Shown here piece after piece: positions 50,902-53,200 of a DNA stretch of 64,000 nt; position 1 is the first letter of the stretch, and each line of letters starts with the position of its first letter. Source of the stretch: Candidatus Poriferisodalis sp. (lineage in GTDB: Bacteria > Actinomycetota > Acidimicrobiia > Acidimicrobiales > Poriferisodalaceae). Location of the stretch: positions 667,147 to 731,146 of the forward strand of contig CBDDDL010000002.1 in NCBI GenBank assembly GCA_965226645.1. Direction: 5' to 3'. Below the pieces are notes generated by a model. It did no database searches. It had not been told where the DNA came from and was given only the letters and a program-made list of their open reading frames with translations. The position numbers and the translations under genes were made by a program.

Positions 50902-51246
50902 GTGCGAATCACAACCCCCTCCCGCCGCCGGCTTGCGTCGGCGGCTGCCTTGGCCTTCGTGCTCACGCTCGTAGCGCCAACCGGACACAGCCTGGCTCTG
51001 AGCACCGAATCAACCGACAGCACCGCTCCGCAGTGGGTAGCTGTCGAAGGCAGCGTGGTGTGGGAAGCCGACTTGACGGTGGGAGGCAGTGGAGATTCCC
51101 GGGGGTACAGCGACGCTGTCGGCGGTTCCCTCACCGATTCGGATTTCTCATGGATGGAGACGGACTACTCGGTGACGAGCATCCTGCTCACCGAACCCGA
51201 CTCGGACTCGGACTCGGACTCGAGCAACAGTCAGCATCCGCTTTGA
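50902..51246 (+). CDS. Secreted N-terminal segment (signal peptide plus ~85 aa ending DSDSDSDSSNSQHPL*). This is probably the displaced 5' part of the haem peroxidase gene, separated by an apparent +1 frameshift.
   Basis: GTG-start signal peptide VRITTPSRRRLASAAALAFVLTLVAPTGHSLA. The frame terminates 29 nt before the TTG that the track takes as the start of the peroxidase ORF. That ORF's frame is open upstream only to 51170 and has no signal peptide of its own. Confidence 0.5.
   Translation: MRITTPSRRRLASAAALAFVLTLVAPTGHSLALSTESTDSTAPQWVAVEGSVVWEADLTVGGSGDSRGYSDAVGGSLTDSDFSWMETDYSVTSILLTEPDSDSDSDSSNSQHPL
51199..51222. repeat. (GACTCG)4 hexanucleotide repeat encoding DSDSDSDS, inside the frameshift window
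   Basis: cccgactcggactcggactcggactcgagc. Confidence 0.6.
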
Positions 51247-51274
51247 GCCTGGACTTCCAGGCGAATCCAGCTCG

Positions 51275-53200
51275 TTGCGGCTGCAGGTCGGCGACGTGGG
51301 GCTGAACCTTTCGGACGGAACCCTCGACAGCGCGCAGTTCACCTGGGAAGGCGCCGACGCCGACTGGAGCACCGACGATCTGGTCTCTCTCAGCCTCAAA
51401 GAGCTCCCCCTGAATGTCGCGCTTCGGGCATTTGACGGTCGGAGAAACAACCTGGACTACCCCACATGGGGCATGGCGGGCACGACTCTTCTCAAGAAGG
51501 CACCCAACTCGTACGCCGACGCAGTGTCAACGCCGACCACCTCGCGACCGAACGCACGCACCATCAGCAACCTCGTGTTCGCCCAAGACGAATCGGTGCC
51601 GAACTCTTCACAGGCCAGCGACATCGTGTGGCAGTGGGGACAGTTCCTGGATCACGACATCACGCTGAGCTTGGACAACGCCGATGAGCCCCTCCCGATC
51701 GCTGTCCCTGCAGACGACCCGGTGTTCGATCCTCTCGGGACCGGCGAGGCCACTATCGGTCTCAGTCGCTCGGTCTCCGATCCCGAGACTGGGACAGATG
51801 CGCAGAATCCTCGGCGGCAGGTCAACGCGATCACCGCGTTCATCGACGGCTCGCAGGTGTACGGCTCTGACAGAGCCCGAGCCTCCGCTTTGCGCACCAA
51901 TGACGGGACGGGGAAGCTCAAGACATCAAGCGACGGCCGACTCTTGCCGTACAACGAGCAGGGCCTCGACAATGAAGGCGGCGCGCATCGCACGACGCTC
52001 TTCGTTGCAGGCGATGTGCGAGTCAACGAGCAAATCGGCCTGACGGCGATGCACACGCTGTTCGTCCGGGAACACAACCGCCTCGCGGGCATCATCGCCA
52101 CTCAGAATCCCGGGCTGAGCGGCGATGAGATCTATGAACTGGCCCGCAAGATCGGCGGCGCTCAGATCCAGAACATCACCTTCAGCGAATTCCTGCCGCT
52201 GCTGTTGGGGCCCGACGGCATCGACGACTACGAGGGCTACGACGCAACCGTTGATCCGACCATCGCCAGCGAATTCTCGGCGGCGGCGTACCGGGTCGGA
52301 CACGCCTTGCTGTCCCCCAGCCTCAACCTCCTCGACGCCGACGGGGAGTCAGAGAAGATCAGCTTGGCAAGTTCGTTCTTCAGCCCTTCGTTCTACAACG
52401 GTCATGACCTCTCCGAAGTTCTGCGCGGGTTCGCGGCTCAACAGGCCCAAGAAGTTGACTCGAAGGTCATCAACGAAGTCCGGAACTTCCTCCAGCGCGA
52501 GCCACACGGCATCGCCTTCGACCTGGTAGCTCTGAATATTCAGCGGGGCCGCGATCACGGCGTCGGCGACTACAACACGGTGCGCAGCGCCTACGGCTTG
52601 ACTGCGGTGGAGAGCTTTGCCGACATCTCGACGGACCCAGATGTCCAGCAGGCGCTCGAGGACGCCTACGTAAACGTCGATGACTTGGACCTCTGGCCCG
52701 CTGCGCTGGCAGAAGACCATGAGACCGCAGCGGCAGTTGGCGAGACGCTCCGCGCCGTCATCTCAGATCAGTTCCGCCGCCTCCGCGACGGCGACCGCTT
52801 CTGGTTTGAGAACGACGCCTACTTCACGGCGAACCCCGAGCTCTTGGCAGAGGTCCGCGGCACCACCCTTGCCGACATCATCCGCCGGAACACCTCCATC
52901 GGAGACGAGCTCGATGACAACGTCTTTGTGGTCGCGAGCAACACAGGGTCTGACACCGACACGGGATCTGACACCGACACGGGATCTGACACCGACACGG
53001 GATCTGACACCGACACAGAATCCGACACCGACACGGGATCTGACACCGACACAGAATCCGACACGAACACGGCGTCCGAAACCAGCACGACGCCTGTCAC
53101 CAACACCACGCCCGACACCAACACGACGCCCCAACGCAACTCAGCGCCGCGACCTGCCCCCACGGTCGCCGCCTATGTTCCGCCACTCTGCTTCTACTAG
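51275..53200 (+). CDS. Animal-type haem peroxidase (peroxidasin/cyclooxygenase superfamily) with a C-terminal (G/E)SDTDT repeat tail. The 5' boundary is unresolved; see the frameshift finding.
   Basis: Distal-His hallmark ..VWQWGQFLDHDITL... Ca-binding ..TAFIDGSQVYGS... Proximal region ..RVGHALL.. ..RGRDHGVGDYN.. ..LDLWPAALAEDH.. Confidence 0.8.
   Translation: MRLQVGDVGLNLSDGTLDSAQFTWEGADADWSTDDLVSLSLKELPLNVALRAFDGRRNNLDYPTWGMAGTTLLKKAPNSYADAVSTPTTSRPNARTISNLVFAQDESVPNSSQASDIVWQWGQFLDHDITLSLDNADEPLPIAVPADDPVFDPLGTGEATIGLSRSVSDPETGTDAQNPRRQVNAITAFIDGSQVYGSDRARASALRTNDGTGKLKTSSDGRLLPYNEQGLDNEGGAHRTTLFVAGDVRVNEQIGLTAMHTLFVREHNRLAGIIATQNPGLSGDEIYELARKIGGAQIQNITFSEFLPLLLGPDGIDDYEGYDATVDPTIASEFSAAAYRVGHALLSPSLNLLDADGESEKISLASSFFSPSFYNGHDLSEVLRGFAAQQAQEVDSKVINEVRNFLQREPHGIAFDLVALNIQRGRDHGVGDYNTVRSAYGLTAVESFADISTDPDVQQALEDAYVNVDDLDLWPAALAEDHETAAAVGETLRAVISDQFRRLRDGDRFWFENDAYFTANPELLAEVRGTTLADIIRRNTSIGDELDDNVFVVASNTGSDTDTGSDTDTGSDTDTGSDTDTESDTDTGSDTDTESDTNTASETSTTPVTNTTPDTNTTPQRNSAPRPAPTVAAYVPPLCFY
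52946..53071 (+). repeat. Seven tandem 18-bp units (gg[ag]tc[tc]gacaccgacac[ga]) encoding (G/E)SDTDT x7 at the peroxidase C-terminus
   Basis: Seen directly. The minus-strand ORFs 52763..53134 and 52819..53163 are artefacts of this repeat. Confidence 0.85.

What the first reader, a model, noticed from the sequence alone, without database searches (positions are those of the whole stretch)
50902..53200. Secreted animal-type haem peroxidase split by an apparent +1 frameshift beside a (GACTCG)4 repeat, with a (GSDTDT)7 C-terminal tail
The catalytic ORF (WGQFLDHD distal-His motif and so on) has no signal peptide. Its frame is open upstream only to 51170, and the only in-frame start is a TTG at 51275. 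Immediately upstream, in the +1-shifted frame, is an ORF with a perfect signal peptide (VRITTPSRRRLASAAALAFVLTLVAPTGHSLA). It runs through a DSDSDSDS hexamer repeat and stops at 51244-51246, inside the open frame of the catalytic ORF. A single-nucleotide indel in 51170-51245 would fuse them into one secreted peroxidase.

This is either a recent pseudogenising mutation, a sequencing or assembly error in low-complexity DNA, or (less likely) an on/off switch. The 18-bp x7 repeat at the 3' end adds an acidic TDTGSD tail; similar D/S/T/G low-complexity occurs in the Fpg and HNH proteins here.
Basis: seen in the sequence. Interest (0 to 1): 0.65.

Follow-up and report, generated by a model that had tools for sequence, protein, structure and literature searches.

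The report
Freshly broken secreted haem peroxidase gene
A sponge-symbiont bacterium's gene for an exported animal-type haem peroxidase has been knocked out of frame by a real 5-base deletion beside a short repeat, which makes it an ordinary young pseudogene; related strains have lost the same gene in other ways.

Summary
ORF-A (50902-51246) carries the signal peptide and the first half of an N-terminal domain. ORF-B (open from 51176, first start TTG 51275, ends 53200) carries the rest of that domain, a complete An_peroxidase domain and a repeat tail. They are two halves of one gene. At least ten Candidatus Poriferisodalis / Acidimicrobiales orthologues (720-739 aa) read through the junction as ...EPDSDS(S/G)TATVSIR...

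DNA alignment shows two changes in the window. The GACTCG array grew from 2 to 4 copies, which stays in frame. One copy of the AGCAC/AGCAA direct repeat was then lost (-5 nt), which breaks the frame. So the lesion is not a 1-nt indel. A close relative (P0124) keeps the predicted intermediate, (DS)4-ST-ATVSIRFEP.

The same broken junction occurs in two independent ENA contigs, one of them a SPAdes-style NODE contig, so an assembly error is essentially excluded. The hexamer cannot restore the frame. I found no Shine-Dalgarno (SD) motif or RNA structure to support the CUU-UGA site as a recoding signal.

All catalytic motifs are intact, and substitutions on the window's branch still look selected (11 synonymous : 8 nonsynonymous). 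The break is therefore recent. Sister lineages carry different lesions: deletions, a nonsense codon and IS replacement. Verdict: a genuine, recent pseudogene of low novelty.

The parts
50902..51246 (+). ORF-A, the 5' remnant of the peroxidase gene: GTG start, signal peptide (RRR n-region at 50923, HSLA|LS cleavage-like site at 50986-51003), first half of the N-terminal beta-sandwich domain, then out-of-frame SNSQHPL and TGA (51244-51246).
   Evidence: It aligns to residues 1-106 of the orthologues, which all start at the equivalent GTG.
51199..51222 (+). (GACTCG)4 hexamer array encoding DSDSDSDS. The orthologues have two copies, so this is an in-frame expansion in a predicted loop of the N-domain.
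   Evidence: TRF, DNA alignment, AlphaFold2 model with the loop between strands 46-56 and 65-72.
51220..51229 (+). Frameshift junction TCG-A|GCAACA. Orthologues and the inferred ancestor read TCG AGC ACA GCA ACA. One unit of the AGCAC/AGCAA direct repeat (5 nt) is missing, which moves the downstream codons to the +1 frame.
   Evidence: orthologue DNA. (P0124 protein retains DSDSDSDS-ST-ATVSIRFEP). (identical junction in L026 and L027).
51224..53200 (+). ORF-B, the 3' part of the gene in the +1 frame. It holds the second half of the N-domain (ATVSIRFEP... to about 51424), the peroxidase domain, the acidic repeat linker and the conserved C-terminus. The frame is open from 51176 and the first start is TTG 51275.
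51425..52939 (+). Animal haem peroxidase catalytic domain with all diagnostic motifs intact: GQFLDHD (51638-51658), Ca-site T-x-F-x-D-x-S (51830-51868), R-V-N-E (52019-52030), proximal His in YRVGHALL (about 52289-52312), LNIQRGRDHG (52532-52561).
   Evidence: Pfam E = 1.4e-154. PDB 8s6c_A E = 2.4e-155. Motif coordinates. Motif definitions from PMC4420034.
52941..53131 (+). 18-bp tandem array encoding T[G/E]SDTD x7 followed by about four degenerate units. It is an acidic linker whose copy number varies: it is 54 nt shorter in L028 and shorter and less regular in the orthologues.
53144..53197 (+). Conserved C-terminal end APRPAPTVAAYVPPLCFY. The terminal motif, typically [YH][VTA]PPL[CV]F[YF] (DPPLIFF in L004), is kept in all signal-peptide-bearing orthologues.

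Best explanation
This is a genuine, evolutionarily recent pseudogene. Its ancestor encoded one exported protein of about 760 aa with this layout:
- a signal peptide;
- a roughly 130-aa beta-sandwich N-domain;
- a haem peroxidase of the peroxidase-cyclooxygenase superfamily, with both ester-forming residues, so probably covalently bound haem and halide-oxidising chemistry (this last point is inferred from family knowledge);
- an acidic T/S/D repeat linker;
- a conserved PPLCFY end.

In this species-level lineage the GACTCG array in an N-domain loop first expanded from 2 to 4 copies, which is harmless and in frame. A 5-bp slippage or microhomology deletion then removed one AGCAC unit right after the array. 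Translation from GTG 50902 now ends at TGA 51244 after 114 aa. That yields only a signal peptide plus half a domain. The catalytic part has no signal peptide, no recognisable ribosome-binding site and only a TTG or GTG internal start, so it is most likely not made.

Shown:
- the gene is split;
- the ancestral state and the order of the two mutations;
- the allele is real;
- the rest of the gene is intact and was under purifying selection until recently;
- sister lineages lost the gene independently.

Inferred:
- no product is made;
- the ancestral enzymatic function.
For: 1. One gene in relatives. P0001-P0009, P0013 and P0026 are single ORFs covering 100% of the fused model at 59-83% identity. 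Locus translations begin at the same GTG. Synteny is conserved: VapBC, peroxidase, MIP, AAA ATPase, hemB.

2. Exact lesion. The orthologues read CC-GACTCG-GACTCG-AGCAC-AGCAAC. The window reads CC-(GACTCG)4-AGCAAC.

3. Intermediate. P0124 is about 94% identical to ORF-B and reads TEPDSDSDSDS-ST-ATVSIRFEP.

4. Not an artefact. The 114-aa product P0131 ends in the same ...DSDSDSDSSNSQHPL*. It is encoded on ENA contigs L026 (ERZ23495149) and L027 (ERZ6111309, NODE_..._cov_2.1), and the junction DNA is identical to the window. The rest of the 64-kb window is tiled by long intact ORFs of up to 2262 aa.

5. Recent.
- All catalytic motifs are intact.
- dN/dS against the orthologues is 0.25-0.29, the same as between intact pairs.
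- Since the split from L028 the window has 11 synonymous and 8 nonsynonymous changes (P = 0.002 against neutrality). L028 has 15 and 34, which is consistent with neutrality.

6. Gene loss recurs in the clade.
- L028 has deletions of 258, 181 and 162 nt plus two 1-nt insertions.
- P0124 has a 44-aa insertion, a +1 frameshift and W>R in WQWGQFLDHD.
- L007 has an in-frame TAG at codon 630.
- L021 keeps only residues 521-678, next to transposase-like ORFs.

7. The neighbouring AAA ATPase gene in the window is itself a pseudogene. It is broken by an IS110-containing 2.5-kb insertion and a 73-nt insertion.
Against: - No expression data are available, so 'no product' is an inference.
- The window's branch still shows purifying selection. 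The frameshift allele is shared by strains that differ by about 1% in the flanking toxin-antitoxin genes. That leaves some room for the idea that the broken allele has been tolerated or retained for a while.
- However, the 209 nt around the junction are identical between the strains, so the allele may be much younger than the strains or may have spread by recombination.
- A CUU-UGA-G sequence, the core of the prfB +1 site, sits exactly at the ORF-A stop (51241-51247).
- Signal-less relatives of the enzyme exist (P0028/29/40/42/45), so a cytoplasmic form is not absurd in principle.
Confidence: 0.8

Rival explanations
1. Sequencing or assembly artefact: the true genome has an intact gene, and the consensus dropped bases in low-complexity DNA.
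For: The lesion abuts a perfect short tandem repeat. Related ENA long-read contigs at 3-4x coverage do carry 1-nt changes that could be consensus errors, for example L024 with CCCC>CCC and L028 with two 1-nt insertions.
Against: The identical junction occurs in two other assemblies from different ENA samples, one of them a SPAdes-style NODE contig. Those strains differ from the window at 54 positions in 1.5 kb. The lesion is a 5-nt loss with no homopolymer. No other simple frameshift is seen in about 64 kb.
Confidence: 0.03
2. Programmed +1 ribosomal frameshifting at CUU-UGA-G (51241-51247), as in prfB, or another recoding event, still produces some full-length secreted peroxidase. On this reading the split would be an expression attenuator.
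For: CUU UGA is the prfB slippery and stop core, and a +1 slip there enters the ORF-B frame exactly (reading of the sequence). The I>F change that creates CUU-U is specific to this lineage. The window's branch shows continued constraint, and the allele is shared by two strains.
Against: There is no Shine-Dalgarno-like element in the 20 nt upstream (AGCAACAGUCAGCAUCCG). Local RNA folding is no better than shuffled sequence, z = -0.45. The product would replace the conserved core strand ATVSIRF of the N-domain with SNSQHPL. The TGA is a by-product of the conserved (I/F)-E codons in the real frame and also exists out of frame in the intact orthologues. There is no A/T run for transcriptional slippage.
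Confidence: 0.04
3. The split gene is still partly functional. ORF-B would be translated from TTG 51275 or GTG 51293, by reinitiation after the ORF-A stop 29 nt upstream, as a cytoplasmic peroxidase. ORF-A might also give a small secreted peptide.
For: The catalytic domain is fully intact. A natural signal-less subfamily of about 618 aa exists. The ORF-A stop and the ORF-B start are close enough for coupling.
Against: The signal-less relatives retain almost the whole N-domain as one ORF. Here only its second half would remain, which is likely unfoldable. No GGAGG-like ribosome-binding site precedes 51275 or 51293. Sister lineages simply let the gene decay, which argues that there is no selected cytoplasmic role.
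Confidence: 0.1
4. Phase-variable on/off switch driven by the tandem repeat.
For: A perfect tandem repeat lies inside the coding sequence at the break. Both repeat arrays in the gene vary in copy number between lineages.
Against: The unit is 6 bp (and 18 bp at the 3' end), so copy-number changes never alter the frame. The frame-changing element is a two-copy 5-bp imperfect repeat that is now reduced to one copy, with nothing left to slip back. All three assemblies with this region carry the same state.
Confidence: 0.03

Closest known systems
Bacterial members of the peroxidase-cyclooxygenase superfamily (Pfam An_peroxidase PF03098). The closest solved structure is PDB 8s6c_A (deposited as 'Lactoperoxidase', 528 aa). 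The characterised cyanobacterial enzyme LspPOX and Dictyostelium DdPoxA (6erc) are also relatives.
   Same: Full-length domain match (Pfam 2-530/530, E = 1.4e-154; 8s6c_A E = 2.4e-155, aligned 4-508). It has the family motifs GQxxDHD, RxxE, the proximal His, the LNxQRGRDHG Asn and the Ca-site T-x-F-x-D-x-S.
   Different: It carries an extra N-terminal beta-sandwich module with no Pfam match, an acidic TGSDTD repeat linker and a conserved PPLCFY C-terminus. In this window the gene is frameshifted, so it is a pseudogene rather than a working member.
Orthologous 'peroxidase family protein' of Candidatus Poriferisodalis spp. (P0001-P0009; loci L001-L004, L006, L008, L010)
   Same: Same gene in the same genomic context, with 76-83% amino-acid identity in the closest eight. 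It has the same GTG start, signal peptide, N-domain, catalytic domain and C-terminal motif.
   Different: The orthologues are uninterrupted. They have two GACTCG units followed by AGCAC-AGCAAC. The window has four units and lacks AGCAC.
prfB (RF2) programmed +1 frameshift site CUU UGA C
   Same: The ORF-A stop context is CUU UGA G, and a +1 slip would enter the ORF-B frame.
   Different: It lacks the upstream Shine-Dalgarno stimulator. It is not conserved as a split in any relative. The slip would destroy a conserved beta-strand. The resemblance appears coincidental.
Ser-Asp repeat stalks of staphylococcal MSCRAMM adhesins (ClfA/ClfB/Sdr)
   Same: The C-terminal TGSDTD array gives weak compositional NCBIfam hits to the SD-repeat regions (E = 5e-5 to 2e-4, far below the cut-offs). 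It varies in copy number between strains, as SD stalks do.
   Different: There is no LPXTG anchor and no adhesin domain. The similarity is low complexity only, so it is not a family member.

Membership tests
Peroxidase-cyclooxygenase superfamily (animal haem peroxidase, PF03098) | Full-length match to the An_peroxidase profile above the gathering score | tested here: met
   516 bits against a cut-off of 25, profile positions 2-530 of 530.
Peroxidase-cyclooxygenase superfamily (animal haem peroxidase, PF03098) | Distal motif X-G-Q-X-X-D-H-D-X: halide-binding Gln, ester-forming Asp, catalytic His, Ca-binding Asp (PMC4420034) | tested here: met
   WGQFLDHD at 51635-51658.
Peroxidase-cyclooxygenase superfamily (animal haem peroxidase, PF03098) | X-R-X-X-E-X: catalytic Arg and second ester-forming Glu | tested here: met
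   GDVRVNEQ at 52010-52033, aligned to GDVRSNEQ of 8s6c_A.
Peroxidase-cyclooxygenase superfamily (animal haem peroxidase, PF03098) | Proximal His ligand with its hydrogen-bonded Asn | tested here: met
   YRVGHALL (52283-52312) and LNIQRGRDHG (52532-52561) align to the same motifs in 8s6c_A. Assigning these as the His and Asn pair rests on family knowledge.
Peroxidase-cyclooxygenase superfamily (animal haem peroxidase, PF03098) | Haem binding and peroxidase or halogenating activity | not testable with these tools
   This needs an expressed protein, and the native allele is frameshifted.
Unitary pseudogene (frameshifted orthologue of an intact gene) | Orthologues at the syntenic position are single intact ORFs spanning the break | tested here: met
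Unitary pseudogene (frameshifted orthologue of an intact gene) | The disruption is real in the DNA, not an assembly error | tested here: met
   The identical junction is present in L026 and L027, from two other ENA assemblies. The raw reads of the window's own sample were not available.
Unitary pseudogene (frameshifted orthologue of an intact gene) | No functional product is made | not testable with these tools
   This is inferred from the lack of a signal peptide or ribosome-binding site on ORF-B and from decay of the gene in sister lineages. There are no expression data.
Programmed +1 ribosomal frameshift (prfB type) | Slippery CUU-U followed by a stop codon at the shift site | tested here: met
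   CUU UGA G at 51241-51247.
Programmed +1 ribosomal frameshift (prfB type) | Shine-Dalgarno-like stimulator a few nt upstream of the shift site | tested here: not met
   The upstream sequence is AGCAACAGTCAGCATCCG, with no GGAGG or AGGGGG.
Programmed +1 ribosomal frameshift (prfB type) | The two-frame arrangement is conserved among relatives | tested here: not met
   All orthologues are single-frame. Only the near-identical strain (L026/L027) shares the split.
Simple-sequence-repeat contingency (phase-variable) locus | Repeat unit length is not a multiple of 3, or a homopolymer, so that copy-number change toggles the frame | tested here: not met
   The units are 6 bp and 18 bp. The 5-bp AGCAC/AGCAA pair is reduced to a single copy.
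Tat (twin-arginine) exported protein | Match to a TAT signal profile (S/T-R-R-x-F-L-K) | tested here: inconclusive
   No Pfam or NCBIfam TAT-signal hit for ORF-A or the orthologues. The orthologues read F-R-R-F-L and the window reads S-R-R-R-L, which resemble the motif only by eye.

The most novel reading that the evidence does not exclude
The Delta5 allele is not dead but attenuated. A low level of +1 frameshifting at the CUU-UGA-G that sits exactly at the ORF-A stop, or reinitiation just downstream, would still deliver a little peroxidase. This would explain why the catalytic part still looks selected and why two strains share the allele. It would be a prfB-like recoding site recruited de novo in a secreted enzyme gene.
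Probability: 0.04. Interest if true: 0.6.

Novelty: new member of a known kind. Interest (0 to 1): 0.2.

Why it matters
For annotation, the two ORFs should be merged and flagged as one frameshifted pseudogene of a secreted haem peroxidase. They should not be reported as a small hypothetical protein plus a cytoplasmic peroxidase.

Biologically it is a small but clean example of stepwise gene death: an in-frame repeat expansion followed by a microhomology deletion, with the intermediate still present in a relative. Across Candidatus Poriferisodalis this exported, probably halogenating, peroxidase has been lost at least five times independently, while other genomes keep it intact. That marks it as a niche-dependent accessory function in sponge symbionts.

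None of this changes what is known about peroxidases or recoding.

Tried and rejected
1. Two exact-pattern scans of JGI metagenome contigs found nothing. One pattern used the flanks of the junction with a variable gap and the other used the 24-mer junction itself.

2. The window's own genome is not among the GTDB representative genomes (best 86%) or the protein database (best 83%). Its reads or contig name could not be obtained.

3. Exact look-ups of P0001 and P0124 returned no contig. The DNA of the 808-kb contig that carries the intermediate allele was therefore not available.

4. TAT-signal or any other family for ORF-A: no Pfam or NCBIfam hit.

5. Rfam scan of 48000-60000: nothing. The promoter and terminator consensus scan of 50400-53400 gave 0 and 0.

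6. RNA fold of 51180-51330 as a frameshift stimulator: z = -0.45, rejected.

7. The first AlphaFold2 run on a 7-sequence N-domain alignment was unusable (pLDDT 45.7). It was rescued with a 33-sequence alignment (pLDDT 89.6).

9. A second homology search with residues from 51326 onward looked for ORF-B fragments of the L026/L027 strain. It found only P0124 and P0291 (L028), so selection after the frameshift could not be measured directly.

10. Literature: no paper in the library mentions Poriferisodalis.
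Full report
**What is in the sequence**

The region holds two same-strand ORFs in different frames.
- ORF-A runs from GTG 50902 (an alternative TTG lies at 50869) to TGA 51244-51246. It encodes a classic signal peptide (VRITTPSRRRLASAAALAFVLTLVAPTGHSLA), about 75 further residues, DSDSDSDS and then SNSQHPL*.
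- ORF-B is in the +1 frame. A TGA at 51173-51175 closes that frame, so it is open from 51176. Its first start is TTG 51275, with a GTG at 51293, and it ends at 53200.

Pfam finds a complete An_peroxidase domain in ORF-B (E = 1.4e-154, profile 2-530/530) and nothing in ORF-A. Tandem Repeats Finder confirms (GACTCG)x4 at 51199-51222. It also finds an 18-bp x7.3 array at 52941-53072 with a degenerate x4.1 continuation to 53131. That array is translated as T[G/E]SDTD units.

**One gene, not two**

A search with the fused model returned single-ORF proteins of 720-739 aa that cover 100% of it. They come from Candidatus Poriferisodalis, sponge-associated Acidimicrobiia. The eight closest (P0001-P0008) are 76-83% identical, and the further full-coverage hits are 59-67% identical.

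In the alignment the orthologues read ...ETDYSVTSILLTEPDSDS(S/G)TATVSIRIEPGL.... The window gives ...LLTEPDSDSDSDS in ORF-A's frame and ATVSIRFEPGL... in ORF-B's frame. The genomic loci of seven relatives all start at the equivalent GTG (VR.T.P.RR...) and run uninterrupted. Gene order around them matches the window: PIN/PhdYefM toxin-antitoxin, peroxidase, MIP channel, AAA ATPase, hemB.

No homologue has a separate upstream small gene. There is a signal-less subfamily of about 618 aa (P0028/29/40/42/45), but it still reads through the equivalent site as one ORF.

**The actual lesion**

At the DNA level the orthologues have CC-GACTCG-GACTCG-AGCAC-AGCAAC(G/A)GT. The window has CC-GACTCG-GACTCG-GACTCG-GACTCG-AGCAACAGT.
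- The window gained two hexamer units (+12 nt, in frame, adding DSDS).
- It lost one unit of the imperfect 5-bp direct repeat AGCAC/AGCAA (-5 nt). This is a typical slippage or microhomology deletion, and it puts the downstream codons in the +1 frame.

The order of events is documented by P0124. This close relative is about 94% identical over the aligned residues and reads TEPDSDSDSDS-ST-ATVSIRFEP. That is four DS units with the ST codons still present.

A confident AlphaFold2 model of the N-domain (pLDDT 89.6, pTM 0.83) places the DS repeat in a loop between two strands. The in-frame expansion was therefore probably harmless.

**Real allele or assembly error?**

The profile search with the N-domain returned P0131. 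This 114-aa protein ends in exactly ...TEPDSDSDSDSSNSQHPL*. It is encoded on two contigs from two other ENA samples:
- L026, from ERZ23495149;
- L027, from ERZ6111309, named NODE_137204_length_1318_cov_2.1.

Both carry the same PIN/PhdYefM neighbours. They differ from the window at 54 of about 1510 positions but are identical to it across the junction. Three assemblies therefore share the Delta5 junction, so an artefact is essentially excluded.

The window as a whole also looks clean. It is tiled by long ORFs of up to 2262 aa. A tblastn screen with ORFs from the syntenic loci found only one other disrupted gene. That is the AAA_15/AAA_21 ATPase on the minus strand, whose damage cannot be a consensus error:
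- a 2.5-kb insertion at 55112-57641 carrying an IS110 transposase and an rve fragment;
- a 73-nt insertion flanked by a perfect 38-nt direct repeat.

**How old is the break, and is the rest of the gene alive?**

All diagnostic motifs of the peroxidase-cyclooxygenase superfamily are intact and align to the closest solved structure, 8s6c_A (E = 2.4e-155). These are GQxxDHD, RxxE, the proximal His and the Ca site, as defined in PMC4420034.

- Pairwise dN/dS of the repaired window gene against the orthologues is 0.25-0.29. This is indistinguishable from intact-intact pairs at 0.21-0.41, setting aside the near-identical L002/L008 pair.
- Since the split from the closest DNA-level relative, L028, the window accumulated 11 synonymous and 8 nonsynonymous changes. 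The neutral expectation is 75% nonsynonymous, so P = 0.002.
- L028 accumulated 15 synonymous and 34 nonsynonymous changes, which is consistent with neutrality.
- Against P0124, the window has 2 genuine derived amino-acid changes (4 as counted; two are alignment artefacts at the junction). P0124 has 15, many at invariant sites such as W>R in WQWGQFLDHD (P = 0.001 for 2 against 15).

The window's copy was therefore selected until recently, and the frameshift is young.

One caveat applies. The Delta5 strains differ by about 1% in the flanking toxin-antitoxin genes, yet show 0 differences in the 209 nt around the junction. The age of the allele relative to the strain split is therefore unresolved.

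**Recurrent loss in the clade**

Other lineages have disabled the same gene in different ways.
- L028 is 94-98% identical to the window. It has deletions of 258, 181 (removing the junction) and 162 nt, two 1-nt insertions and a 54-nt contraction of the 3' array.
- P0124 has a 44-aa insertion, a +1 frameshift inside the catalytic domain and an N-terminus truncated to an internal Met.
- L007, a complete chromosome, has an in-frame TAG at codon 630 with conserved sequence continuing after it.
- L021 keeps only residues 521-678, themselves frameshifted, next to ORFs that I judged transposase-like from their sequences without a family search.
- More distant paralogues (L024, L025) are also frameshifted, although those are low-coverage contigs and one change is a homopolymer change.

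At least seven loci remain intact. The picture is of an accessory exported enzyme that is repeatedly dispensable.

**Alternatives considered**

*Phase variation.* The repeat units are 6 and 18 bp, so copy-number changes cannot toggle the frame. The 5-bp pair is down to one copy.

*Programmed +1 frameshifting.* The ORF-A stop context is CUU-UGA-G, the prfB core, and a +1 slip there enters ORF-B's frame. Several points argue against it:
- There is no Shine-Dalgarno-like stimulator upstream and no unusual RNA structure (z = -0.45).
- The split is not conserved in any orthologue.
- The TGA is simply the out-of-frame reading of the conserved (I/F)-E codons.
- The product would replace the conserved strand ATVSIRF with SNSQHPL.

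*Internal initiation.* Starting at 51275 or 51293 would give a signal-less enzyme with half a beta-sandwich and no evident ribosome-binding site. I cannot exclude it without expression data, but nothing supports it.

**What the intact protein was**

This part is inferred. The intact protein was exported by a Sec-type or possibly Tat-type signal. The orthologues read FRRFL, but no HMM support was found.

- The module is widespread. There are 513 cluster representatives at E <= 1e-3. It often occurs in tandem arrays of up to 17 copies in giant proteins that also carry fn3, cadherin, Big_5 or SWM repeats. That suggests a surface or matrix-interaction role.
- The catalytic domain has both ester-forming residues. 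From family knowledge this goes with covalently linked haem and halide or thiocyanate oxidation.
- The acidic repeat linker resembles SD-repeat stalks in composition only.
- The terminal PPLCFY-type motif is conserved in all secreted orthologues and has no known function.

**Verdict**

This is a genuine, recent frameshift pseudogene of a secreted bacterial animal-type haem peroxidase. It is biologically ordinary. The modest points of interest are the reconstructed two-step mutational path and the repeated independent loss of the gene among sponge-symbiont lineages.

Noticed in passing
window 54311-58194 (- strand): The AAA_15/AAA_21 ATPase gene between the MIP channel and hemB is a pseudogene in three pieces: 58194-57628, 55124-54903 and 54904-54314. 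It is intact (401-431 aa) in L003 and L010. It is interrupted by a 2.5-kb insertion at 55112-57641 that carries an IS110-family transposase (55145-56359, -) and an rve integrase-core fragment (56963-57631, +).
   Followed up: partly
window 54860-54970: A perfect 38-nt direct repeat (54860-54897 and 54933-54970) with 35 nt between the copies. It forms a 73-nt insertion relative to L010 and L028, which have one copy, and it shifts the frame of the AAA ATPase gene. The origin of the 35-nt filler is unexplained.
   Followed up: partly
[not shown]
   Followed up: partly
window 53144-53197; same position in L001-L010 and L021: All signal-peptide-bearing orthologues end in a conserved motif, typically [YH][VTA]PPL[CV]F[YF]-stop (DPPLIFF in L004), after a variable low-complexity linker. 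The signal-less subfamily lacks both the linker and the motif. It could be a sorting or anchoring signal, and it does not fit the layout of the sorting signals I know (judged by eye, not tested).
   Followed up: partly
window 50629-51117 versus L026/L027: Divergence between the window and the Delta5-carrying sister strain is mosaic. It is about 1% in VapC and the antitoxin, and about 10% across the intergenic or promoter region and the signal-peptide half of ORF-A (dN/dS 1.56). It is 0% in 51118-51326. This points to a recombination tract. Both short contigs end at exactly the window-equivalent position 51326.
   Followed up: partly
L007 (NZ_OZ244781.1) codon 630; L021 (NZ_OZ253573.1) 3700-6611; L028 (ERZ25071132 ctg801975): The same peroxidase gene has been inactivated independently in other Poriferisodalis genomes. 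L007 has an in-frame TAG. L021 has its 5' 1.5 kb replaced by transposase-like ORFs, plus a frameshift. L028 has three deletions of 160-260 nt plus small indels.
   Followed up: yes
L024 2700-3010; L025 2440-2700: Two more distant peroxidase paralogues, called as N-terminally short proteins P0109 and P0071, are also frameshifted in their N-terminal regions. L024's change is a CCCC>CCC homopolymer change, and L025 comes from a 4x-coverage contig. Some of these may therefore be consensus errors.
   Followed up: partly
window 59674-60687 (+) and 48169-49731 (-): Acidic D/S/G/T low-complexity inserts occur in the Fpg/Nei-type glycosylase (...SDSDDGDTGDSHDGDTGTGSDESIGDSGGDRGDG...; the L028 orthologue is about 30 aa shorter) and in the HNH protein (NDNDNDNDSGSGSDDGGGE). 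Such inserts seem to be a habit of this genome.
   Followed up: partly
window 44212-50539: Immediately upstream of the peroxidase lies a defence and mobile cluster whose content varies between related genomes. It holds an McrB-like AAA_5 ATPase (44212-46536), McrC (46537-47880), an HNH protein (48169-49731, -) and a PIN/PhdYefM toxin-antitoxin pair (49849-50539, -).
   Followed up: partly
proteins P0028, P0029, P0040, P0042, P0045: A subfamily about 63-66% identical and about 618 aa long starts inside the N-domain (MT...GGPL(T/S)D(S/N)GFSWRG...). It has no signal peptide and no C-terminal linker or motif. It is apparently a cytoplasmic version of the same enzyme.
   Followed up: no
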